A stretch of 58,631 nt of DNA, counting the filler, from Catajapyx aquilonaris (Eukaryota), in NCBI GenBank assembly GCA_000934665.2. It is 3 parts of 3 records of this genome, joined end to end, with 100 filler letters (N's around TTAATTAATTAA, not from the genome) between each part and the next. Parts side by side here need not be neighbours in the genome. Positions count along the whole stretch, not along the records: positions 19,599 to 39,079 come from JYFJ02006454.1; 2 more parts are not named here. One strand, written 5' to 3'. The position numbers and the translations under genes were made by a program. Positions 15,019-39,179 of the stretch are shown here, in pieces; within the stretch, counting starts at the first letter, position 1; each line of letters starts with the position of its first letter. The notes under the pieces are model-generated. The model searched no databases. It was not told the origin of the DNA and saw nothing but the letters and a program-made list of their open reading frames with translations.

Positions 15019-17841
15019 ATGTGGGAGTCAAGTGACGAAGTTTTTCTTATGGAAGCAGTTCCCTGCTGTGCAACAAATCCAGTCCAGTTTGATATTGGCA
15101 AAGGACTATCACTGGAGGACAACAAGAATCCTGGAAGTTGGCAGAATATTTTGCAGTGCATATCCAAACAGAGCACTGTGGGGCTACCCTCAGATACAGA
15201 CATTGAGAACTTCTTAGCAGAATTGTAATAAAATTTTGTTAATTTATTTTTAAGTTACAAATATTATTCAAAATTTGATAAGCATTACATTTCGTCACAA
15301 ATATTGCCTTACTACCTGATGTTAAAATGATTACAATAAGATAAACAGGGATTTGAATAACTTCCTTTGCTTTAATAGGTCAGAGAAAAATGAGGGAAAA
15401 AACCCTCATGGTACATCACTCTCAAATATGGTAAATATGTCAATATTATGCCAGATAATATTATGCAATGTTTTATATAGTTGCCATTTTTGCAGCACGA
15501 TGGCTACATAGTGGACATGAGTGAGGAGTCCCAAAGACTGGCAACACAAGACAGCATACAAGGAAAATCTCACAGATGTTCTTCTGACATTCAAGAATTG
15601 AAGGACTCTGGTACAGAAGATAAACAGAGTCTGACACCTGATTCAGCACTACTGCGATGTGGTTCAAGACATGGCTCAGTTTCACATAATCAGGAAGATC
15701 ATTTAGGCCCTGATTACCATGTGACTCCTTTGGAGGAACATGATCAGGCTCATGCACTTTTGGAAGAAGGAAAATATGCTGAGGCGATCAAGGCTTATGA
15801 GGAGGTCTTTAAAAAACAGTTAAGCACTTTAGGTTCAAATCACTTGGACACATTGAGGACGAATCATAACATGGGTGTTGCACTTTTGAAACTAGGAAAG
15901 TACAACAAAGCATTAGAAGTGTTTCAGAACGTCTTAAAGCAACAAGCAGAAAATGTTACAGCAGGTCATCCTGACATTTTAAAAACAAAACATAGCATTG
16001 CATTCACACTTCATAAGACTGGAAAATATGCAGAAGCATTACTAAAATATGAACAAGTTCTCAAAGAACAGGTACAAAATATTGGTGATAATCATCCAGA
16101 CACAATAAGGACTAAGCAAAACAGAGCTGTTGCACTCCATGACCAGGGTGATTATGTTCAAGCATTGAGATATTTTGGGGAGGTGTTAGAGCAACAAGAA
16201 CAGAATTTACCAGATGATCACCCAAATGTATTGAACACAAAGTGCAAATTTGCTGGTGCACTTGCAAGCCAAGGCAAATACACAGCTGCATCAAGAGAAT
16301 ACAAGACAGTTTTGCAGAAGCAAAGCGCTATCTTAGGCTCCAACCATCCAGATATTTTAGAGACTTTACATGGCATGGCTACTGTACTGCAAGGAAAAGG
16401 GGAATATAATGAAGCATTAGATGCCTACAATAAGGTTTTTGTCAAGCAAATGGAGATGTTAGGTCCTGATCATCCTGACACTCTGAAAACCAAGCACAGC
16501 ATAGGTGATGCAACCTACGCATTAGGAAAGCTAGAAGATTCTCAAAAAACATTCAGAGGGGTGCTAGAAAATCAGAGTAAAATTTTAGGAGCAAATCATC
16601 CAGATACTTTGCGTACCAAATATAGCATAACCAGAGACAGCTTTGAGAGAGGAAACTATGACATGGCTTTAGATGCTTTTGAGGAGATTTTGAAAACTCA
16701 GATAGAAACTTTCAATAATAATGATCATGCAGATGTTCTACGGACAAAATGTAGCATAGCTGCAATACTTCATGCCAAAGGAAAGTATGATGAATCATTA
16801 ATTGATCATTTAAAAGTTTTGCAAAAACAAGAGGAACTTTTAGGTCCTATTCATCCTGATACTCTTCAGACACAGACTGGTGTAGCACTTGCTCTTCATG
16901 GCAGAGGTATTTACAATGAAGCACTGCATATTTATAAGCAGGTTTTAGAGAAGCAGCAAGACTTTTTGCGTCCCAATCATCCAGACACTCTCAGAACAAT
17001 GCTTAATATTGGTGTTATACTTCATGGCCAGGGAAAGTATGATGAAGCTTTAAACGCTTATACGTCTGTTTTAGAGAAACAGAAAGTGAACTTTGGGCTG
17101 GACCATCCAAAATATCTTACCACTAAACATAATATAGCCACTGCCCTTCTTGACCGAGGAAATACTGAAGAAGCTTCCGATGTTTTTAATGAAGTTTTGA
17201 TCAAACGGGAAGATGTACTAGGCCCTACTCATCCTGACACTCTGAACACAAAGTACAGTCTTGCCCTGGCATGTAGAAGTGACATAAAAGGCAAGGAAAG
17301 ATATCAGTTCTATAATGAGTTGTTAGATAGGCAGAAAGAAGTCTTAGGTATTGATCATGTAGTTACTTTAAGAACAATGCACAGCATTGCGGTACATCTT
17401 CACGAGGAAAAAAAGTATGATGAAGCATTAAGAGGATTTAATGAAGTTATAGAAAAACGGGAAGAAGTATTAGGTGCGTTTCATCCAGAGACTTTGAGAA
17501 CAAGGCATAGAATTGCCCTTACATTTGAGGGCCAAGGAAATTATAATGAAGCGTTGCATCATTATAAAATTACTGTACGTTACCAGACAAGAAGCTTGGG
17601 TGACAACCATCATGAAACTCTCCTGACAAAGCACAATATGGCCTTGGCACTCTCTGCCCAAGGCAAACAAAAGGAGGCTTTGGAAGTTCTGACAGATGTC
17701 TTGGAGCAGCAGGAAAAGAGTTTAGGTCATAACCACCCTCAGACTATGAAAACAAGGGAGAACAAAGACATTATATTTGAGAACAGCCAAGGTTTTTTGC
17801 CTCGACTTCTTGGACTACTGGGTCTAAACTTTTATAGATAA
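15019..17841 (+). CDS. Tetratricopeptide-repeat protein (nephrocystin-3/kinesin-light-chain-like 42-aa TPR array)
   Basis: Phase-consistent exons 15019-15224, 15379-15430 and 15496-17841. The final exon is a stop-free 2.3-kb frame with about 16 tandem 42-aa repeats (GKYxEALxxYxxVLxxQxxxLGxxHPDTLxT). Further upstream exons are possible. Confidence 0.85.
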
Positions 17842-19498: not shown

Positions 19499-19598
19499 NN
19501 NNNNNNNNNNNNNNNNNNNNNNNNNNNNNNNNNNNNNNNNNNTTAATTAATTAANNNNNNNNNNNNNNNNNNNNNNNNNNNNNNNNNNNNNNNNNNNN
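19499..19598. other. Artificial scaffold linker (44N-TTAATTAATTAA-44N)
   Basis: A 12-mer with stops in all six frames, centred in exactly 100 nt. An identical linker lies at 39080-39179. Confidence 0.95.
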
Positions 19599-19917
19599 CA
19601 AAGTCCCTGTTACAGGGTGAAAGATGTGCAAACTGTGACAGGAGTTATGAACCACTCCTTTTCTGGTGTCAGACACCCACTATCAACCTACTGTCCCGTA
19701 TTCTCTCCAGCCGCAGCAGCCAGCAGGACTACAACAGGCTCCGCGTCCTCCAACGGATCAACTGTGCCCGGATGCCATGCCACATCGCCCGACTGAACGC
19801 TGCCTTGTTCCGACGTACGATTCCATGATGTATGGTCGACGACTCAGCACGTCAGTGCCGATCACGGTGCTTGCCTTTTGGGCGCCCTTTTGCCTTAAAT
19901 AGAAGAGCAGGAACAGG

Positions 19918-20223
19918 ATGACATTAACCTGTGCTACTGGCGATAAACTCAAAACGTCTGGTTGTTACTGGTTCAATCTGACAATAGGTAGTCATAAACT
20001 ACAACACAACTTTTGGGTCTCTGACATTAACATTGGTACAGATATTGATGGTATTATTGGAGTCGATTTCTTAGACTATTATCACGTCAATATTGTGTTA
20101 TCAAAGAAAGCAATAGACATATCTGGAGACTTAATTCCGTTAGTAGGAGAGAAGATTCCTCAGAGTACTAGTATAGTAAGGTTGGATGGCAAATTTTCCC
20201 AGCATTTTTTTTTACAAGGTTAG
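19918..20223 (+). mobile_element. LTR retrotransposon (Ty3/Gypsy-like) aspartic protease fragment
   Basis: ...HNFWVSDINIGTDIDGIIGVDFLDYYHVNI resembles the C-terminal half (D-x-I-I-G-x-D-F-L) of retropepsins. Confidence 0.6.
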
Positions 20224-20374
20224 GTTCACCATTTTAACCTAAGTTTTGGACCAATGCCATTTTTCAAATATCCTTCACCGTAAGTAAATAATATATTATC
20301 CTTTTCACGAGCATGCCAAAAATTACATGTCATTACGACTGCATACATTAAAATTTTGCATGGGTGTGCAATCC

Positions 20375-21835
20375 CTTGAGGTTTCTGCTCTTACTATAAA
20401 TCGACACACAGTCTTCTAAAACATATAATGAATTCTCTCTGGCAAAATTTGTACTGAACATTCGTACAAGATACTAAATGGTCTAACAGGAACTGGATTG
20501 GATCACAATCGAATAATCCTCTGAGAAATCGTCTGGATTTCAATCTAGATCCCAATTTAATAGCCGCTTCTAGTTCTTTATTCTTAACCAGGTGAATCAA
20601 TTGTTTTCTCAGCCGGTTCTGAATCATACCATCCCCTGTTTGGTCTTTATAAAGAGCTACGCGGTAGGGATTGATTGGAAGTTTCTCACCGGGGCGATCT
20701 CTTCTGATATTACTACTAGCCTTCGAAAGGAGAGCTTGGGACAGGTCCGGATCAACTGGGATCAAGAACATGTAGAGTGATAACCATACTGTCAGAAGAT
20801 CATTTTCTCCCTTTGTTAGGTAGGATTGGTATTCCTCCAAACTCTTGAGGGTCCAGCAACATTAACAACAGAGATCTAGTTCTCAATTGCCTTATCTCGG
20901 GATGTGACAATTGGCAGTAATGAAGACATGACATAAATGAGACGATGGTGGGTTCCATATCCACACACAGACACACATTCAGCAAATACTCCCTTGATCA
21001 TTTCGAGAGGTGTCGGAATGAGCAGGTTTGACAATCCGTGCATTTTTGCCCCTTTCTTTAATGTTATTGCCACCCATGCTCCGTCTAGAAGATACACTTT
21101 CCCGAACCCCAGGAATCTTCGAGTCCAGTAAGTCTCTGTCAATCTGACCTTAAATCCAAATTGATCATGTAAGTGGTTGTTGAAAGTTTCTAAGTATGCC
21201 TTTGGATCATCTTGGATGTCATGTTTCTGCACACTGACAACAAGTCTTGAGATCATCTCCATTTGCCATCAGAAAAGCAGTAACTCCAGCCTGGTCACAG
21301 ACATAACGAGCAACTGATTCATAAATCCAAGTCCAAAATTTCTGGTTCAATCCCTCTATGCCTCCCTGTTGACCATCCCAAGAGTACATAGATGAAAAAT
21401 CAGACAAGAAAACCAGTGACCTGTTAAATACATGCATTATATGCTGGAATTGTTATTGATCAAAAATTCTGTCAAATATTAATCTTCCAACAGGCTCACA
21501 TAATTCATTCCGGAAACAGTTGTTCCAGGCATCAATGTCAATTGATGTAAAAAAAAAAAACACACGAAATAGTCATCTGATCTGTTTATCAGGCTATAAT
21601 AAGCGTTCATCTTCTCAAACTTGCTTAACTCATTGGTGGTCATTGCTTGTGATGGGTTGTACAAGTCCATAAGGGTAGACATGATCTAATATGCATCTGC
21701 GGGCTCTCTCAACGGCTGGTGATGATCCAAACATTCGTCCTTCCTGCTTTAATTATAATTCTTTTTGAGTCAATATAATCACAAAATAATCAATTGCTTC
21801 AGGATCTTCCAAGTGCAATTTGCTCAAAATACTTC
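20375..21835 (-). pseudogene. Endogenous viral element: chuvirus-like (Jingchuvirales) L protein RdRp core, frameshifted
   Basis: Motifs in order across frameshifts: QKEL*LKQEGRMFG (premotif), SIDIDAWNNCFRNE (A), YSWDGQQGGIEGLNQKFW (B), MANGDDL (C, with GDD as in chuviruses rather than the mononegaviral GDN), ETYW...FGK, KKGAKMHGLSN and LLDPQEFGGIPI. Confidence 0.85.
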
Positions 21836-21865
21836 CTGACGGCTTGATGAGGATATTTGGTCGTT

Positions 21866-22185
21866 AAAAATCAGGATTCTCTTGATCATATGCCTCCAAC
21901 AGCAGCGTGTGTAAGACGGCAGCCGTCACTTGGTGTGCCTCTCTTGCCTTTTTAACGTGTGTCACCTGCAATGAAAGGCTCTTTTAGCGGCGCCGTAACC
22001 ACACTTCAAAATAATAATTACTAAACCTAAAGGAACACTCACCTTGAGTAAGGCATCCGCTGCGCCACTCGTTGTGATTCCTGCGTTGACCACAATTGAT
22101 GTCCATCCACAACCCTCCATATAACTACCCAGGACGCGAAAAAAATTCATTTCAATATGCAGAGGCCCAAGCAGGAACATAAATT
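21866..22185 (-). mobile_element. Fragment of a large invertebrate DNA-transposon protein (superfamily uncertain), intron retained
   Basis: LGPLHIEMNFFRVLGSYMEGCGWTSIVVNAGITTSGAADALLK, then a GT-AG intron at 21966-22042, then VTHVKKAREAHQVTAAVL. This matches the widespread GxLHIEM...GSGW...HAHQVT transposon protein family. Confidence 0.65.
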
Positions 22186-23149
22186 GAATCGAGCAAAAGA
22201 AGAACAGCACATGTCACCAAATGCAACTTTTTCAGGAGAGACAAAAAAACTGATTACAGAGCTTACCGTTCACGACTGACAGTCCATACTTTCGGCTATA
22301 TTAGCAGACAGGCATACGCTTCCAGAAATGTAATTTGGTTCTCAATACATTAATTAACTATTGAGATAATGTAAGTTAAAATGTGGACTTGTGCTGTTCT
22401 TCCTTAGGTTTTCCTTGAATTTTATTAACAAAATTAGAACAATGTGTCAGAATTAGAACACATTTATTGTAAATCAAAACATGTGGTCAGGAAAAGACTC
22501 TGGTATAATTTATATTTTATAACATTCATTGGATCAAAGGATATTGAAAGAAGAATATGGTAGCTATATGCTTGATGAAATGTGAACTCCTACTGGAAAA
22601 GTTGTTTATTTTCCTGACTAAGAAAATATCATTACAGTATTTCAGTACCCTTGGACATTATAAACTTGAACATTCTCTTATTTAGAATGCTTCCATTTTT
22701 TTAGTTGTGTAGGCCTATAGTTTATTTTTAACTTGACTTATTAAAGACATTGTACCACCGACTTCCTGTACCATACAGCTAATTCATCCCAGATATGTAC
22801 AGAGCAATTTGCCTGCAGAATCTACAAATAGTAGTGAATCCACTTTTCGTTTTACTGATAATAAAGCAGATAACTGGATTGTCATTGACTGCAAATTAAT
22901 GTAATGGACAGAACTCACTACATGCTTTGTTGGGCAAGTTATACCAATTTATAGACCATCTCTACACATTATAGACAACATGTACATTGTAGTATAGCCT
23001 ACATACACATTCCGTCTTCATGGCATTATATCCCATGACAGGGTGGCCAGCGATGACCATCAGGTATCACACCTGGCCATATCACATGATGGCAATACAA
23101 TGAATCCACTGCTGTCTGCTCAGGTACACACATAATAGGTATGCATTAA

Positions 23150-23308
23150 GGCCATTTCACAAAAAAATGTCGCGCGGCAAACGGCGCGCGTTGCGGCAAA
23201 GTTATTATTTATATTTATTATTGCCAACAATTGGCAACAATAAATATAAATAAAAAATTTGCCGCAACGCGCGCCGTTTGCCGCGCGACATTTTTTTGTG
23301 AAATGGCC
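23150..23308. mobile_element. TTAA-flanked palindromic MITE
   Basis: TTAA-GGCCATTTCACAAAAAAATGTCGCGCGGC...GCCGCGCGACATTTTTTTGTGAAATGGCC-TTAA. Confidence 0.8.
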
Positions 23309-23312
23309 TTAA

Positions 23313-23715
23313 GTCACGTTTCGAGTGTCGTGTAAGTCACGAAAGAAATGATTTATTTCTTGTAAAATTAATAACATAACACCAAGTTCACAATAATATT
23401 TTAATTTGGGTTTTTGAAAATATCCGCACCCCAATAACACTAACATTCAAGGCATAAATGTGAAGAATTTTACATTCATATCTGAAGCCTCTTTTACCAG
23501 TGGCTTTCTTCTCGTGTAAGTCACAGATTACTTTATACATTTATATAACTCAAATGAAATGTGCAACTGTTAAAATCAAAACATTAACACTTAGATACAG
23601 GCTGCATATTTATGTTTAAACACCATTTCCTTAAATGCTACGTTTGTGCTTTAAAAAATTAAAAGTTAGGCATAAACTGAGTGACATGTCGTGTAAGTCA
23701 CACGTGGAATTAGCC
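23313..23715. mobile_element. DNA transposon terminal fragment with repeated CGTGTAAGTCAC motif
   Basis: The motif occurs at ~23329, ~23514 and ~23690, and the segment ends in GTGGAATTAGCC. Confidence 0.4.
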
Positions 23716-23771
23716 AAATATAATCTATTCTCCTTCATTCACGCCAACTTTCCTCTGTAGAGGTCAATGAG

Positions 23772-23940
23772 CTCTAGACATTATTTTGGCTGCGATACGA
23801 AAAAAATGCTCTCCTGAAAAATGTGTCACCTTGCAACTGGGCCCTTTTGCATATCCATGCTTCGATCTTTTTCGTTGTTTTGTTACCCTCCCTCGCGACC
23901 CCAAATATTATGATCGCGACCCACAGTTTGGGAAGCCCTG
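23772..23940. mobile_element. hAT-like terminal fragment
   Basis: Ends in ...CACAGTTTGGGAAGCCCTG, a CAGGGCTTCCCAAACTG-type hAT TIR. Confidence 0.45.
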
Positions 23941-24033
23941 CCCTAAAGAAATACCTTACCTCACAAATCATCCGGTCGAATTCTTTCTGAATCACTGCCA
24001 CTCCCTGCGGAATTTCCTCCGTTTGAATAATAG

Positions 24034-26558
24034 CACTATGTAACACACTTTTTGTGTTTGGCAAGTGAGTGTTATGTCCTGCTTTCTTATGCCTAAAAAC
24101 TTGAGATAATGGCCATTATACCTGCCAAAGTTTGCCTTTGTGCTCAGGAGAATGACTTATATATTTTGCATATCCCCATATACGTACTTGGGTAACAAAT
24201 GTCAATTTTTATAAACAGACAATATTTAGAAATGTGTGGTTTTTCTAGATTTACGATTGTACTGCACATCACTTTCCCGAATTAGTCCCCATATGTAATC
24301 TCCCATCATGCTACCATTGTACTGTCCTTGGTATCGACGTTCAAAGGTCATCATATCTTGATGGAAGCGTTCGCCGTGCTCCTCTGAGTAATCTCCCATG
24401 TTCCGCTTGAAGTGATCCAAGTGAGCATCAAGGATATGGAGTTTGAGAGACATCCTGCAACCCATCTTGCCATAGTTCCTAACCAGAGTTTCAACCAGCT
24501 TCACATTGTTGTGGGCCTTATGATTCCCAAGGAAACCTTTCACTATTGCCACAAAGCTGTTCCCCTGCTATTTGTCGCGCGGCAAACGGCGCGCGTTGCG
24601 GCAAAGTTATTATTTATATTTATTATTGCCAACAATTGGCAACAATAAATATAAATAAAAAATTTGCCGCAACGCGCGCCGTTTGCCGCGCGACAAATAG
24701 CAGGGGAACTTCGTAAAACCACCTTGGAGACCCATCAGGAATGCCACAATTTTAAAATCTCCTATGACCTCCCACCTGTGCTCATCATACCTCAGTCGGT
24801 GCAGTAAAATCTTCACATTTTCATAGTCCTCTTTGAGATGCACTGACAGTGAGTGCGCCAGGGGAATAGTAGGTAACGTGTTCCCATTATGAAGCAGGAC
24901 AGCCTTGAGGCTCTTGCACGAACTGTCAATGAAAAGGCGCCACTCATTTTCACTGTATGTGATGCCGATTTCATCAAAAAGTCCTCTCACATCGCTGCAG
25001 AAACATAGTCCATCTTGACTGTTGAAGAAACTTGAAAAAACCTGGTGTCGCTTCCTCTGGTCTGTTATATGTACACTTTCGTCCAAAAGGTTCCACTGCT
25101 TGAGCCTGGAGGTCAACAGCTCAGCATTAGATTTTTTGAGTCCAAGATCTCTTATCAAATCATTCAGGTCTTGTTGATTCGGGAAATATGGCACTTGGTC
25201 CGAAGCAGAGTCGGTGAAATTAGCATCTTCATCTCCGTCGCTGTCTGATTGGCCACTTTCATAGGAGGATAACTGTTCTTTTGCTGCTGGTGGAGTGGGC
25301 ACTGGGTACTCTGTGCTGTGTGGCACTTGTGCGATTGATGAAGGAATGTCTGGATACACCGCTGCTTTTGCATTTTTACCAGATCGGCGTTTTGAAGGGT
25401 CCACCATGCAGAAGTAACAGTTGCTTGTGTGGTCAGTAGGTTCCCTCCAAATTCGTGGAATTGCAAACCTCATGGCCCTTTTCTCTCCTCTGTACCATGC
25501 TGCAGAGGAACAAAATTAAATGAATGTAAAACTAAGATATCTAGTGAGCAACAACTACCTTAATTTTACCTTACCTTCTAGAGTTCTTATGCAGTTCACG
25601 CAGGTGAAATGAGGTGCCCATGTTTTATCCTGATCTCCAACTGGCATTCCAAAATATGCCTTGTAGGCCTGACACATTCTCGATGATTCTTGTACAGGGT
25701 ACTTTTTCGCTCTTGTCTTGAGGAATTCACCACACACATAGCAAAATGAGTCCACTGGATGCTTGCAGCCTCTTGACGCCATGCTATGTACCTAGGTATA
25801 CAGTATAGTGCGTTTGGTGTGCAGCATGCTCCAGCAAAGCAAACCATACTGTCACTGTTGAGGGCGCTGTAGGAAACCGGAGCACTCTGAAATGATTGGC
25901 AGCTCGAAGAGGGGAGACACGAGGGAAAAACTTATTTCGGGAACCACCTGCATACAAAAAATTGCTAGGGTTGGGAATAAGAAATGATTGGAAGGTCAAC
26001 GAGGGGACGAGATTCAGAGACGTGTGGTCACCCAAATCACATGGCCCCAACATATGGTGTGACTAGTGCAGTTGTGTTTATAAGTACAAGGGGGACATTT
26101 CCCGACATCTTCTGTGACGTGGGTCAAGCAGGTCAGTCTGATCTTCAATTTTAATGCATGCGGCTTTTTGTCGGCAAGTGAGCGGGCGCCGAGCAGATCC
26201 GTCGGTGCGAAAAAAAAAGAGACGAAAATATGGGTACCCCTCAGGGAAAAAGAGTCATTACCCAGCCCTAATTGATCGGATGGCCTTGGAAACCACTCTG
26301 AAATCTGATAAACAGCTAAACGCAACTTTTTTGTGCATTTTCCAAAGGGAAATAATTTTAATTACTCTAATAAGTTAAAAAGAATTTAGCCGGGTCCCCT
26401 TCTTCTGTGATCGCCCTGTATACATATGATTGTCCTGGTCACAAAAGCAAACTTTTTACACCATAATTGCCATTTTCTGTACTTTCTAGACACGGGGAAA
26501 CTGAAACACACAATAAATGCCCAAACACAAACATAAAGTTAAAATTTGTTACATAGTG
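24034..26558 (-). mobile_element. Chapaev3 (CMC) DNA transposon with internally deleted transposase
   Basis: TIRs CACTATGTAACA...TGTTACATAGTG with flanks TAG/TAA. Transposase: MASRGCKHPVDSFCYVCG (25782), intron 25500-25574, RFAIPRIWREPTDH..CYFC, WRLFIDSS, GGFTKFPCYL, then a break, then WNSFVAIVKGFLGN...HILDAHLD...SEEHGERFHQD (to 24226). Confidence 0.8.
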
Positions 26559-27757: not shown

Positions 27758-28425
27758 TCATCTCATCCTGAGCAGCCTTCTTCTTATTTTTTTGTCATCA
27801 GCAGCCATCTTCTTGGCCAATAATATTCTATCCGGTTCCCGCAGAGCCAACACACTTATAGATGGAGAATCCGTAAGTTCCGGAAGCATGCAGTCAAAAT
27901 AAAATTGCTCCAATTTGAGAATTATCTGGGAAGTAAACTCCTCGTCTCGGAATATCTTGACCGTGACCATGTCACTGGGAAGCCAAACCACGAAGTCAGT
28001 GAATTAGGTTGCAGCACAGTAATTGCATCTGGATTTGATAATAATATGAATGCTGCTTCGGCAAATATAACTTTCCCTCCTCTTCCACCTTTTTGGAGGG
28101 GAAAATGGCTGATGCTTTCCACTGCTTCCGCGATGCTAACACATCTCCTTGACGTCCATGGGCACTTTACCTCCAGGATGAAGGAATCATCTATGTTCTC
28201 TCCATGGACAATCCCGTCTGGTGTCGCTCCGAGGAAGGGGTATTCTTTATCCACGTAAAGCCCGTACTTACTGCCAGTTTCCATTTCATATTGAGCTATT
28301 GCCTGTTCCTCATGGGCAAGGCCCCATGCCATGGCTTCTGTTTGCTTGAGGGATGAGTACAAAATCCTCCGCACCAGACCTGCAGAGAAGGTAGTAGACT
28401 TCTGGCACGCCACCTGCTTTGCGTA
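27758..28425 (-). mobile_element. YqaJ/lambda-exonuclease C-terminal part of a Kolobok(E)-type transposon protein
   Basis: AMAWGLAHEEQA...PFLGATPDG...ILEVKCP (PD-(D/E)XK) followed by FYFDCMLPELTDSP...LREP. Confidence 0.75.
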
Positions 28426-30563
28426 CACTCTTAGTTGCGGAGGCCATGACGGTAAAATCCACATCAAAAGGCCGGGGATACAGAGACTTGCTGACTGATT
28501 TGTGAAAGGGAAAACTCATAAGCCTGGCATTGAGTTGTTTCCGAGTGAAGATGTGCCTTTCAGAAACAGCTACCCTAAGAAAAAGCATAATTTCTTTTGG
28601 TCCGAAGGCTTCTAACACAACATGCATGGGGTCATACAGTAGGTCTTTTGTAATCGAAAAGTGCGCAATATCATTTAAAGACAGACCGACCATTTAATCC
28701 ACACTCTTGAGACATGTGTCGCTTGTCTTTCGCGGACTTGCAGTTTTCTATGGCCTCTACTTGTCTTTTCACTTCAGCATCTGTGCGCAGGTGGCATTGC
28801 CCATGATACGTGAGAGTGGCATAATCAGCACTACGTGCTAAGCAGGACCTACAGGGTCGTAAGACATTTGGACTGAATGATTCCTTGAACCCTGCGATGT
28901 TGTGGCATGCCAAAGCATCGCCAGTGTGACAGGGATGGACACAAAGACGAACAAACGTGGGTTTCGCTTAAATGAATGGTGTTTATTTTACCGTAGCTCA
29001 GAGGTACAAAAATAGGGGTAGGGAGAAATAGGAATATCAGAAGGATGGGAGAAGGGAGTGACCAGTCCCCGGGATATTGTCCCAGGAACTGGCCACGAGC
29101 GAAACGGGTGACGGGTTTTTATAGTGGGCAGAACAGGAGTGATGCATTGTGGGTACTAGGCATGTATTAGGCGAGAGTGTGGGTTGAATTATAATGGGTC
29201 GGAGAAGGGATCAGTACGGGGAGTGGTGCACTGTGGGTAGGAGGTCGAGTTTGATCGTGTAAAAAGAGGCACGGGAGTGGTGCACTGTGGGTGGGATGTA
29301 AGTTTGGTCAAATAGGGGGTGTTCCAGAAACAGCTCAATACTGTGATGGGTAATACTGTTACACCAGCATATGCCAGGAGGCACCCATGAAAACGTTCCT
29401 CTCCCTCGCATGTCTTCAACATAACCCCCTCATCCATAGATAAATTATTTACAGTAGCCACAAAATCTTGCAATAGTTCCTTTTTCATGCTGGCCAGTTT
29501 TAGGTCACTAGACTCTCCTACACCTAATAAATGAATATGGCACAGCTTAGATCGTAGAACAGGTGGGACATTCAGGAACACCACATAAAAGAAACACATT
29601 TTACCCCTTCCGCCACGTTTCATCCCCAATGGATTGGCGAGTTCTACGTCATCATTGTAGAGGAGCATCTTAATCAGATTTCCCTGCTCGTAATACTTTT
29701 GTGCAATGGGATGTGTATGAAACTTACAACCATCTGTAAAGTCTTTCATCAACCCTGCTTCCCCTTGGTGTGATGATTGCCTAAAAATGGTAAGCATTTC
29801 CTTGCATTTCAGCAAATGTTCTGATAGAGCCACAAGAGGGATTGCGTATGCTTTTCGACTACTAACAGAGAGCAAAACCTCACGTGGTTCTACATACAAG
29901 CCCTGCTGACGATACAGTGCTTTCCTGCTTTTGTCCCTTTTCAACCGCTTCAGGTCAAGCTCAATACCACTTATGTCAATGATGTTTGATACATGAGCCA
30001 CCACAGAGTCAATTAGCACTTTTGAGGCTCTGTGATGTCCCTCTAATTGCCTGCACATTTTCTCTACTTCTAACTGCACTTTTTCTTCTACTCGCACTGA
30101 ATAATCTTTTGATCCACCAATATTACTACCATTTGTCTTTCCGCTATGTCAGTTGCCTGAGTAGCACTCGGCACTAAAAAGCATCTATCATGCCGATTAT
30201 GTGCTTCATACCGTACAGGGTACTCAAAAGTAACCGCTTATTTTGGCTGATACCGCTATAATGCATGCGCGCATCGTCTCCGCGCATCACGTGATATACA
30301 ACAACGAATTCAAACGTTACCTGTAACATCTAGATAATATCTAAGCCTGCTTACTTAGACGTTACATGAGAGGTCTGCAACGTCTCCGCCTTGGAGACGT
30401 TACAACGTAATATCTAACCCTGTATATATTCGACCAGACGTTCCCAGATACGTTTAAAACATGTAGTAACGTCTAACATTACACAATTCACAGCTTTTGT
30501 AACGACTAAAGTGTGACATGAACGTTACATGGACGTTACATGGACGTTACCAGTCTAAGAGTG
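28426..30563 (-). mobile_element. EnSpm/CACTA (CMC) transposon, truncated transposase interrupted by a solo LTR
   Basis: LYNDDVELANPLG...FLNVPPVLRSKL...AYAG/DALACHNIAGFKESFS..RPCRSC...DPMHVVLE. The ends are CACTCTTAG (28426) and CTAAGAGTG (30563), with subterminal ACGTTAC repeats at 30315-30550. Confidence 0.78.
28925..29363 (-). mobile_element. Solo LTR
   Basis: TGTGACAG...CTGTTACA termini and a 4-bp TSD CCAG. TATAAAA precedes AATAAA on the minus strand. Removing it restores the EnSpm frame A-G-D-A-L. Confidence 0.85.
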
Positions 30564-31245
30564 CATGAACCGTTCAGCTGGGTTGCTGGTCTTATGCTGA
30601 ACCAAAGAGTCTGAGAGAGAAGAGAGCCGAATGACGGCGGATCCTATTATTTCAGCCAACATTCCCACTTTTTTTAACGTGTCCACTTGACTCTCGCTTC
30701 CGTCTTCTTTCTGGAGGCAATCATCTGCACAAGAGGTATGCTGGCCAAATACGTGTAAGGGCAAGTTCTTTAAATCCATTTTCAGTTTTTCTGCATCACC
30801 TTCATCGGTCACATTGTCTATCATCGACTTGTCTGTATACGTCAATGATCCCATATTGGTCTTCAGTAACTTTCTAGCGGCAAGTCCATCTGGGCCTGGA
30901 TAGGAGCGAACGTTTGCGGCTGTCCTCTCCAGTTTGCTACGAAAGTTTCGCAGAGCATGATTTACGCACTCCACCTTCGTAACTGGGAGATGTCCTGCGT
31001 ATTTGACGCGTTCCCTATGAATCCCTATGAATCACCGATAAATCGCCGTCACCCACGATGCTGTTGCAAATTATGCCGTGCTCTTCATAAAGCCTATTCA
31101 AACCGTCAACAATTATGTCAGATTCCATGGGCGTGGAAGACTCGGACCAGTCGGCATTGCAAGCATTGTCAAGGGGAGTCCTTTGGCTTCTGCATATTTA
31201 TATATTGCGCACCCCCGCAAAGAGGACTTTCCCTGTGACCCTGTT
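30564..31245 (-). mobile_element. Kolobok-type (Mutator-like) DDE transposase fragment
   Basis: VTGKVLFAGVRN, SSTPMESDIIVDG...IVGDGD, KVECVNH, HVFGQHTSC and TSNPAERF. Confidence 0.75.
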
Positions 31246-31882
31246 TAGAGGCTACCATTTACGTGCAATCCGAACCAAAGTGCATTATTATGTCAACGAT
31301 TAGGCCGTAAGCGGACTATGGCGGGAGCACATTTTTGTACACGTTTTCTCTATTATTTTCATGCCAAGGCATCGGAGGATCATAACACCCTCTAATTGAT
31401 ATCTGGGGAATGATTTGGTGATTCCAACGATGTGAAAAAATCGCACATGTTTTTGTTTGACAGTATAGTAAATGGTGGGGGAGAACCCAGCTGTCCTTCG
31501 TCCAGATGTCAATCACTTATTCCCTCGAAATTATCCACTCTGATTTAGATAACACTGATCTACAACGCGCCTAGGGCAGGCAGGTAAACTCAAAAGGGAA
31601 TAGGTAACATCGCACAAAAAGGGAGGGGGGGGGGAGGATGCTTGCATCATTCGGCCCCAGGTCCAGCGGGGTCCTCCTCCATCGGGCTGGCACCCAGCTG
31701 GGTGTCTTCCACCGCCGTCGCAGTCACAGGAGCAACACCGCCGTCTGCCACTCCCACTGCTGCTGCTGCCCGCGGGTCGCTGGTCCCCAGATGACCGGCC
31801 CGTCCCCTCCAGCCGGTTACCTCCGTCCGCAGGATGTCCAACTGCCACCTCAAGGCTCGGATCTCCTCCCCAACAACTGCGA

Positions 31883-32650
31883 TCACTGGCGGACGATCTC
31901 TCTCAGTTGGTGCAGCCATCGAAAGCTTACGCACGCCTGAGGTATGTCCTGTGGTGGCAAGTCCACAGGGTTGTGGCCCGCATCGAGGGTGATCCCCATC
32001 TCTGCAAGCAGCCTGGCCTGTGAAAGTGTCAACTTCTGGGCGGGGTACCACCCCAGTAAGTTGACGTTCGCTTGCCACGTCTCTTGGGCACCGGCTACCG
32101 GTGCACCAAAGTGAGCGTGTCTCCACACGTCCAAGTTCCATTCCGGGTCGAATCCTGGATTCATGGTGGCCATCAGATCTGAGTACAGCCTCGCGACGAG
32201 CACACCTGGTGTCATTACACCCATGTACATCGGCAGGGTATCGTCTGTCATGTTCCCCCACATTCCAGGAATCCGCACGCCGCCATATCGTGCACTGTGC
32301 ACTGGCACTCTGTCCACATTCCAGTACATCGTCTGGCCTGATCGGGTATCCAGATCTCCTATCATCGATAGGGCGTAGTAAATAGGGAGTGGTGTTTCGG
32401 TCTTTCCCAATTCCATCCCGTGGATAACATTGAAGTACCGTGGTGGTAGCTGTCCATGGTGCTCCAATAGGGCGGCTTTCCGTGCCCATAGCAGCATTGA
32501 GCAAAAGAGCTCGAACTGCGTCAGACTCATCCTCTCTGCCCAGGCCGGCGCGTTCCTCGCCATCTGACAGTATGTCTCTCTGACTATTGAGACGAAGCCT
32601 GAATCGTCGGTGGTATAGTCGTTTCCACGTTGGGCGCCACTTTCGCGATG
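31883..32650 (-). pseudogene. Endogenous viral element: partitivirus-like capsid protein fragment
   Basis: An open frame of ~250 aa: DDSGFVSIVRETY..M, FELFCSMLLWAR, PLPIYYALSMIG, PGVLVARL..DL, WNL and NLLGWYPAQKLT..Q..L...GIT. The pattern is recalled from invertebrate partiti-like virus coat proteins and has not been searched. Confidence 0.65.
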
Positions 32651-32663
32651 GATTAACTCGTAG

Positions 32664-32899
32664 GTCTTACCCAGGGCGCTGAAACCGAAGTACACACTCA
32701 CTGTTTCGGGACAATCTCTCCTTTTATTCCTCTAAGCGTCTATATACATGTCTAGTCTCTTATGCTCTCCTGGGCTCTCTGCCACCTTTCCCCCCTTTCC
32801 CCACCTCCACGACCCACAACCCCCAACACGAGGGTGCGGCCGAGGAGGGGAGAGGGACCAGCGGCGGGCGGCGCAAACTCCCGCCGTTATAATCTGTCA
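32664..32899 (-). mobile_element. LTR-like fragment abutting the capsid EVE
   Basis: On the minus strand it starts TGACAG and carries TATATA then AATAAA before a U5-like tail. No clean CA end or TSD was found. Confidence 0.4.
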
Positions 32900-39079: not shown

Positions 39080-39179
39080 NNNNNNNNNNNNNNNNNNNNN
39101 NNNNNNNNNNNNNNNNNNNNNNNTTAATTAATTAANNNNNNNNNNNNNNNNNNNNNNNNNNNNNNNNNNNNNNNNNNNN
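39080..39179. other. Artificial scaffold linker (44N-TTAATTAATTAA-44N)
   Basis: Same design as 19499-19598. Confidence 0.95.

What the first reader, a model, noticed from the sequence alone, without database searches (positions are those of the whole stretch)
20375..21835. Endogenised chuvirus-like L polymerase core
About 1.45 kb covers premotif A through the post-D region with several frameshifts and stops, and motif C is GDD. It is a fossil of a negative-strand RNA virus. It lies antisense to the inferred cluster transcript, so derived piRNAs would target viral mRNA or antigenome. The divergent motif context suggests it may represent an undescribed Jingchuvirales lineage in this host (inference).
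Basis: partly seen in the sequence, partly recalled or inferred. Interest (0 to 1): 0.7.

Follow-up and report, generated by a model that had tools for sequence, protein, structure and literature searches.

The report
Decayed chuvirus-like polymerase fossil
A broken 1.4-kb piece of the polymerase gene of a chuvirus-like (Jingchuvirales) RNA virus sits in this arthropod-type genome; it is an ordinary kind of viral fossil, but it comes from an unsampled lineage next to the little-known family Crepuscuviridae.

Summary
On the minus strand, about 21870 to 20496 (weakly to 20452), lies one contiguous fragment of a jingchuviral L protein. It matches residues 471-941 of the 2135-residue L of megalopteran chu-related virus 119 and carries pre-motif A and motifs A, B and C. 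It is broken by at least six frame changes and two TAA stops.

An exhaustive HMMER search found 238 relatives, best E 2e-57. All five named hits whose taxonomy I checked are Jingchuvirales. In a careful ML tree the fossil is sister to eight Crepuscuviridae-like L proteins (bootstrap 100, SH-aLRT 99). It is 41-45% identical to them and 24-30% identical to other families.

GDD at motif C is not divergent: 134 of 134 aligned relatives have it.

In contigs of three DNA runs from one sample, a 1948-base contig covers the fossil without a difference. Its depth equals that of the unique flank, and high-copy repeats lie on both sides.

The piRNA-cluster reading is untested. No RNA run is listed, and only four mobile or viral remnants could be oriented.

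Verdict: a new member of a known kind, of modest interest.

The parts
21823..21870 (-). Piece a: weak first stretch of L homology (16 residues, matching L residues 471-486 of P0006)
   Evidence: tblastn 62% over 16 aa; HMM positions 465-483, i-E 0.081. Weak when taken alone, but collinear with the rest.
21681..21827 (-). Piece b: pre-motif A region (KQEGRMFG at 21726-21749) with an in-frame TAA at 21753-21755
21563..21676 (-). Piece c: 38 residues in another frame (NPSQAMTTNELSKF at 21617-21658). It ends at an A12 run (21549-21560) where the frame changes again.
   Evidence: HMM positions 529-571, i-E 2.2e-5
21246..21560 (-). Piece d: motif A (21519-21545), in-frame TAA (21453-21455), motif B (21330-21365), motif C NGDD (21252-21263)
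   Evidence: Pfam PF00946 E 6.6e-8. Pieces b and d together match HMM positions 480-671, i-E 2.1e-64. Motif places.
20915..21247 (-). Piece e: region after motif C (FGFKVRLTETY at 21128-21160, LGFGKVYLLDG at 21080-21112). Calling these motifs D and E rests on recall.
   Evidence: Pfam PF00946 positions 736-836, E 3.1e-6; HMM positions 671-782, i-E 1.1e-32
20818..20904 (-). Piece f: short stretch in a third frame, ending FGGIPILP (20818-20841)
   Evidence: HMM positions 781-822, i-E 0.014; tblastn. Weak alone, but collinear.
20496..20831 (-). Piece g: last clear stretch (matching L residues 830-941 of P0006). A 16-17-residue match in another frame may extend it to about 20452.
   Evidence: HMM positions 823-934, i-E 7.7e-22
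20171..20292 (.). High-copy repeat flanking the fossil on the low-coordinate side
   Evidence: Contig depth 340-570 in this part, against 14-34 over the fossil (tables 2 and 8)
22190..22335 (.). High-copy repeat flanking the fossil on the high-coordinate side
   Evidence: Contig depth 250-570. It is the only part also present in run X5 of another sample.
20261..22208 (.). Single-copy island that holds the fossil, covered by one 1948-base contig in each of three DNA runs
   Evidence: 0 differences; depth 26.5/33.8/14.5, against 29.6/44.7/14.3 for the adjoining unique contig 20061-20290

Best explanation
This is a non-retroviral endogenous viral element. It is a DNA copy of an internal part, about 22%, of the L (polymerase) mRNA of a jingchuvirus that once infected the germ line of this arthropod-type host. 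The source virus belonged to a lineage that branches at the base of the Crepuscuviridae-like clade. The copy is single in the genome, sits in a repeat-rich stretch, and has since decayed neutrally (six or more frame changes, two stops), so it cannot make a polymerase. Shown: identity, placement, decay, and presence in genomic DNA at single-copy depth. Inferred: germ-line integration through a host reverse transcriptase. No RT domain, poly(A) tail or target-site duplication was found at its ends, so the route is unknown. Also inferred: it is now inert or at most a template for small RNAs.
For: Homology: Pfam PF00946; 238 relatives, best E 2e-57. Collinear pieces cover profile positions 465-934 of a Crepuscuviridae-like L profile, and nothing else in the window matches. 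In tblastn, 0 of 89 HSPs from 38 L queries fall outside 20300-22100. Names: 16 hits carry virus names. The five whose lineage I looked up are all Jingchuvirales. The nearest named is megalopteran chu-related virus 119, Crepuscuviridae (E 4e-50). Motif C is GDD in 134 of 134 relatives and in the fossil. Tree: careful IQ-TREE, 47 rows x 507 columns. The fossil plus 8 Crepuscuviridae-like rows get 100/99, and the 8 without it get 100/99. The same topology appears in FastTree on 135 rows and in a quick tree with 3 added IMG/VR L proteins. Identity is 40.8-45.3% to that clade, 23.6-30.4% to other families, and 52.3-78.8% within the clade. DNA: a 1948-base contig is identical to the window in 3 runs at the depth of the unique flank, with high-copy repeats on both sides.
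Against: The three DNA runs come from one sample and one study and may be the reads the assembly was made from, so they are not independent proof of integration. Their kind is marked 'DNA?', which is a guess. No whole genome is held, so single copy rests on depth alone. The tree has no Mononegavirales outgroup, so 'basal' means sister to the sampled clade and is not a rooted statement. Part of the fossil's long end branch (0.94) is decay after integration. The A12 run at one frame change could be a homopolymer sequencing error rather than a true indel.
Confidence: 0.88

Rival explanations
1. The fossil is a working unit of a one-strand piRNA cluster. The plus strand is transcribed, and the resulting piRNAs are antisense to the L mRNA of the cognate virus and restrict it, as described for Aedes EVEs.
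For: All four mobile or viral coding remnants that I could orient lie on the minus strand, like the fossil. They are the L fragment, a YqaJ-domain ORF at 27922-28515, Mutator-like pieces at 30555-31197 and a multi-copy arthropod ORF at 24610-25515. The stretch is repeat-rich. EVEs in piRNA clusters are documented in mosquitoes (abstract of PMC13643977 in the listing; passages of PMC7642597).
Against: Four of four is not significant (two-sided binomial p 0.125, my arithmetic). An uninterrupted 786-codon TPR frame lies on the plus strand at 15481-17841. In Limulus nearly all EVEs lie outside piRNA clusters, and no EVE-derived piRNAs were found in horseshoe crabs (passages of PMC12282059), so the Aedes pattern is not general.
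Confidence: 0.2
2. It derives from a member of Mononegavirales (for example a rhabdovirus) and not from Jingchuvirales.
For: Pfam names the family Mononeg_RNA_pol, and the best solved structure by sequence is VSV L (5a22, E 6.6e-5).
Against: That Pfam model also covers jingchuviral L proteins: PF00946 is precomputed on all 22 hits. All five named hits whose lineage I looked up are Jingchuvirales, and all 134 aligned relatives share GDD. VSV and rabies L show GDN in the alignment. E-values to jingchuviruses are about 50 orders of magnitude better.
Confidence: 0.01
3. It is not integrated. It is either a contaminating viral cDNA or DNA form, or an assembly chimera.
For: Only one sample holds it, and no independent genome could be searched.
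Against: Frame changes and stops exclude a replicating virus. One contig runs 190-340 bases beyond the viral part on both sides into sequence that overlaps the flanking contigs. Its depth equals the unique flank in three runs. G+C of 0.400 equals that of the flanks, 0.398 and 0.410.
Confidence: 0.02

Closest known systems
L protein of megalopteran chu-related virus 119 (QPB73986.1; Aqualaruvirus sialis, Crepuscuviridae, Jingchuvirales)
   Same: It is the nearest named relative (E 4e-50; named; lineage). The polymerase core has the same order of pre-motif A and motifs A, B and C, with NGDD at motif C. The two fall in the same clade with 100/99 support.
   Different: Identity is only 41% over 434 aligned columns, against 52-79% among the sampled members of the clade. 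The fossil branches outside all 8 (11 with the IMG/VR rows) sampled members. It is a 22% fragment, broken and in host DNA.
Chuviridae-derived RdRp EVEs of mosquitoes (Dezordi et al. 2020, PMC7642597; abstract and passages read)
   Same: It is the same kind of object: a fragmentary L-derived EVE of the same virus order in an arthropod genome. In that study L-derived EVEs were the minority class (18 of 428 chuvirus EVEs in 37 genomes).
   Different: Those derive from Chuviridae. This one derives from the Crepuscuviridae side of the order. No BEL-Pao or other LTR-retrotransposon domain was found beside this one. The only hint, an RVP_2-like ORF at 19903-20220, has E 0.18 and no homologues.
Limulus polyphemus LpEVE1 and LpEVE2 (chuvirus L-derived nrEVEs; PMC12282059, passages read)
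   Same: They are L-derived jingchuviral fossils in a non-insect arthropod. No small RNAs from them were detected there.
   Different: They are nearest to Tacheng tick virus 4 and Herr Frank virus 1 (Chuviridae). This fossil is 24.5% identical to Tacheng tick virus 4 L in the same region.
Vesicular stomatitis virus L (PDB 5a22)
   Same: It is the best solved structure by sequence (E 6.6e-5). Motif B is shared, GGxEGLxQKxWT.
   Different: Motif C is GDN in VSV and GDD here. The relation is only at class level.

Membership tests
Jingchuvirales L protein (as the source of the fragment) | Sequence homology to the monjiviricete L polymerase core | tested here: met
   PF00946 E 6.6e-8 and 3.1e-6; 238 relatives at E<=1e-3
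Jingchuvirales L protein (as the source of the fragment) | Nearest relatives are jingchuviruses, not mononegaviruses | tested here: met
   16 virus-named hits. The five lineages looked up are all Jingchuvirales. The taxonomy of the other 11 was read from their names only.
Jingchuvirales L protein (as the source of the fragment) | GDD at motif C. That this separates the order from Mononegavirales' GDN is partly recalled; one search shows GDN for two mononegaviral L proteins. | tested here: met
   134 of 134 relatives and the fossil have GDD
Crepuscuviridae | Forms one clade with Aqualaruvirus sialis L, to the exclusion of other families | tested here: met
   100/99 in the careful tree of 47 rows; 100
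Crepuscuviridae | L-protein identity above the ICTV family threshold | not testable with these tools
   The paper that sets the thresholds (Di Paola et al. 2022, PMC8939347) is not held. The fossil is 41-45% identical to the clade and lies outside its sampled diversity, so 'member' versus 'sister family' stays open.
Crepuscuviridae | Genome organisation (linear, segmented, according to passages of PMC10084718) | not testable with these tools
   Only an internal L fragment is present. No other viral gene was found in the window. Non-L ORFs of IMG/VR contigs L001-L005 gave no tblastn hit.
Non-retroviral endogenous viral element | Viral sequence contiguous with host sequence in genomic DNA | tested here: met
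   A 1948-base contig spans the fossil and both unique flanks at flank depth in 3 runs. Caveat: one sample, possibly the assembly's own reads.
Non-retroviral endogenous viral element | Same locus present in other individuals or related species | not tested
   No genome is held. The only other sample of the species label (X5) is too small to tell.
piRNA-cluster-resident EVE | Small RNAs of piRNA size and 1U bias from one strand of the locus | not testable with these tools
   No RNA holder is listed
piRNA-cluster-resident EVE | Strand-coherent array of transposon remnants around it | tested here: inconclusive
   4 of 4 orientable remnants are on the minus strand, but n is small and a long open TPR frame lies on the plus strand

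The most novel reading that the evidence does not exclude
The fossil records an otherwise unsampled family-level lineage of Jingchuvirales, sister to Crepuscuviridae, in a host outside the insects. It also sits in a transcribed one-strand small-RNA source locus, so this arthropod keeps a heritable antisense record of that virus.
Probability: 0.12. Interest if true: 0.5.

Novelty: new member of a known kind. Interest (0 to 1): 0.3.

Why it matters
EVEs derived from chuvirus-like L genes are already catalogued in mosquitoes, ticks and horseshoe crabs, so the kind is known. This one adds a data point for Crepuscuviridae. In the NCBI taxonomy copy that family has one genus. In the held literature it co-occurs with 'endogenous' in only 3 papers. 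In the one of these whose passages I read, PMC10084718, the two mentions of the family are taxonomic. The fossil shows that a lineage branching below all sampled Crepuscuviridae-like viruses once infected this host's germ line. It gives a probe for finding the living relative in the host's RNA. If an orthologous locus is found in related species, it also gives a minimum age for that lineage.

Tried and rejected
1. Word-indexed search with the 130-residue piece, 'longer' proteins: none found. The tool stops at 2000 residues, which is shorter than most L proteins, so this is uninformative.

I replaced it with open frames. All 34 frames of 120 aa or more and all 143 frames of 75-119 aa were scanned. 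Of the 199 frames of 55-74 aa, 150 were scanned. I left out 11 that lie inside the TPR frame or the fossil. The 38 from 50422 onwards were not scanned.

3. Whole-genome search for further copies: no genome is held.

4. RNA evidence: no RNA holder is listed. Run X5, from another sample of the same species label and with 32 million letters, holds only the right-hand repeat. It says nothing on presence or absence of the fossil.

5. LTR-retrotransposon neighbour: the ORF at 19903-20220 (+) resembles a retroviral protease only at E 0.18 and found no homologue. Not supported.

6. A possible host exon with a GT donor on the minus strand at about 22045-22130: no Pfam support (best E 0.15). Dropped.

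7. Shared repeats, LTRs or a target-site duplication on the two sides of the fossil: none.

8. Other genes of the virus: non-L ORFs of five IMG/VR contigs gave no hit in the window. Glycoprotein and nucleoprotein genes of true Crepuscuviridae-like viruses could not be fetched.

9. The ORF at 31647-32666 (-) had no usable Atlas hit.

10. Earlier notes of this scan by sequence: no look-alike stretch.

Full report
**Observation.** The minus strand between about 21870 and 20496 encodes a recognisable piece of a monjiviricete L polymerase.
- Pfam PF00946 (Mononeg_RNA_pol) hits two of the six open pieces I gave it: 21219-21452 (E 6.6e-8) and 20876-21268 (E 3.1e-6).
- The best solved structure by sequence is VSV L (5a22, E 6.6e-5).
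- I read one frame through by reference with X at stops (P0001) and had HMMER read 1.84 billion representative proteins with it. It found 238 proteins at E<=1e-3, 167 at E<=1e-10 and 8 at E<=1e-30, the best at 2e-57.

**Anatomy.** tblastn with 38 L proteins gave 89 HSPs, none outside 20300-22100. A profile of six Crepuscuviridae-like L proteins, run over all six frames of the window, gave seven collinear matches covering profile positions 465-934 and nothing credible elsewhere.
- The fragment matches residues 471-941 of the 2135-residue L of the nearest named virus, about 22% of the protein.
- The pieces alternate between the three minus-strand frames, so there are at least six frame changes. 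One of them lies at an A12 run (21549-21560).
- Two in-frame TAA stops lie at 21753-21755 and 21453-21455.
- Motifs: pre-motif A at 21726-21749, motif A at 21519-21545, motif B at 21330-21365, motif C (NGDD) at 21252-21263.
- A 16-17-residue match in yet another frame may carry the fossil on to about 20452.
- The longest open stretch is 155 codons. No polymerase can be made.

**What virus.**
- Sixteen hits carry virus names. The five whose lineage I looked up are all Jingchuvirales. The nearest is megalopteran chu-related virus 119 (Aqualaruvirus sialis, Crepuscuviridae; E 4e-50).
- All 134 of 134 relatives that cover the region have GDD at motif C, as the fossil does. VSV and rabies L show GDN in the alignment. 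GDD is therefore the normal state of the order and not a peculiarity of this copy. The exact context NGDDLR occurs in 7 relatives.
- For a tree, I translated the pieces each in their own frame, aligned them as fragments and kept them as one gapped row.
- In a careful IQ-TREE analysis (47 rows, 507 columns, LG+C20+F+G4) the fossil groups with eight Crepuscuviridae-like L proteins at bootstrap 100 and SH-aLRT 99. Those eight group without it at 100/99.
- The next relatives are the flatworm-associated jingchuviruses (99/96), then Myriaviridae.
- FastTree on 135 rows and a quick tree with three added IMG/VR L proteins give the same placement.
- Identity is 40.8-45.3% to the clade over 322-434 columns, 23.6-30.4% to other families, and 52.3-78.8% among the clade's members.
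- The source virus therefore lay outside the sampled diversity of the clade. Part of the long end branch (0.94) is decay after integration. Two stops and six indels in about 1.4 kb suggest only a few per cent of neutral change. That is my rough inference and was not computed.

**Is it in the genome.**
- Four runs of one sample and one study hold the stretch. In each of the three I laid, a single 1948-base contig covers 20261-22208 with no difference. Its depths are 26.5, 33.8 and 14.5. The adjoining unique contig at 20061-20290 has 29.6, 44.7 and 14.3, and overlaps it by 30 bases.
- On both sides the depth rises to several hundred (about 20171-20292 and 22190-22335). The fossil is thus a single-copy island between high-copy repeats.
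- G+C of the fossil (0.400) equals that of its flanks.
- Caveats: these runs may be the assembly's own reads, and their kind ('DNA?') is guessed. No whole genome is held.

**Surroundings and the piRNA claim.**
- I scanned all 177 open frames of 75 aa or more and 150 of the 199 frames of 55-74 aa against Pfam.
- Besides the L fragment, the only mobile-element domains are a YqaJ-type ORF (27922-28515) and Mutator-like pieces (30555-31197), both on the minus strand.
- A 301-codon minus-strand ORF (24610-25515) resembles a large, mostly arthropod, unnamed protein cluster.
- That gives four remnants out of four on one strand. This is suggestive but not significant.
- A 786-codon open TPR frame lies on the plus strand at 15481-17841.
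- No reverse-transcriptase or integrase domain, shared flank repeat, target-site duplication or poly(A) tail was found at the fossil's ends. A protease-like ORF beside it is unsupported. The route of integration is unknown.
- No RNA run is listed for the stretch, so transcription and small RNAs could not be tested.
The premise is open.
- Earlier notes of this scan made the same one-strand-cluster inference for other pieces of this genome and also found no RNA data.
- In horseshoe crabs no EVE-derived piRNAs were found, and that paper cites an earlier survey that nearly all Limulus EVEs lie outside piRNA clusters (PMC12282059, passages). The mosquito pattern cannot be assumed.

**Comparison and novelty.**
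- L-derived chuvirus EVEs are known. There are 18 among 428 chuvirus EVEs in 37 mosquito genomes (PMC7642597, abstract and passages), and LpEVE1 and LpEVE2 in Limulus.
- Jingchuviral EVEs are reviewed for glycoproteins in PMC10084718 (passages).
- The order and its five families are set out in the ICTV profile PMC10770922, which I read whole.
- This fossil is a new member of that kind.
- Its one distinctive point is its lineage. 'Crepuscuviridae' and 'endogenous' co-occur in only 3 held papers. In the one whose passages I read, PMC10084718, the two mentions of the family are taxonomic.
- I could not decide whether the fossil belongs to the family or to a sister family, because the paper with the ICTV thresholds is not held.
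- That the host is arthropod-like rests on earlier notes and on the taxa of the Atlas hit. I did not test it further.

Noticed in passing
window 15481-17841 (+): An uninterrupted 786-codon frame made almost wholly of TPR_12/TPR_10 repeats (E 3e-109; weaker match to the nephrocystin-3 TPR domain). It looks like an intact host or expanded-family gene, 2.6 kb from the fossil and on the opposite strand.
   Followed up: no
window about 22700-25515 (-), with 23146-23312: A long transposon-like reading frame. The 301-codon part at 24610-25515 resembles a 670-member 'hypothetical protein' cluster, mostly arthropod (Atlas score 0.92). In the translation printed it appears to continue below an 82-nt-arm, 96% complementary hairpin at 23146-23312, which may be a small palindromic insertion. 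The high-copy repeat at 22190-22335 may be this element's end.
   Followed up: partly
window 27922-28515 (-) and 30555-31197 (-): A YqaJ-type recombinase domain ORF (E 3.5e-12) and two pieces of a Mutator-like transposase (E 1.6e-11 and 1.4e-9) lie on the same strand as the fossil.
   Followed up: no
window 19499-19598 and 39080-39179: Two places each have twin runs of 44 N separated by 12 bases. These look like scaffolding gaps of one pattern. The first lies 0.85 kb from the fossil, so the long-range linkage of the fossil to the TPR frame depends on a scaffold join.
   Followed up: no
L001, L002, L003 (IMG/VR contigs of 7.6, 8.2 and 4.8 kb): These carry L genes 49-51% identical to Aqualaruvirus sialis L in the core region and fall inside the Crepuscuviridae-like clade. 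With the unnamed Logan and ENA proteins P0002-P0005, P0007, P0158 and P0159, this makes at least ten unnamed members beside the single classified species.
   Followed up: partly
tree: Beihai hermit crab virus 3 is filed by NCBI under Chuviridae, genus Mivirus. Its L core groups with the Aliusviridae-like rows (100/100) and not with the Chuviridae rows. Xinzhou nematode virus 5, which I took as an outgroup, fell beside the Chuviridae rows (100/98). The database labels and this tree therefore disagree in places.
   Followed up: no
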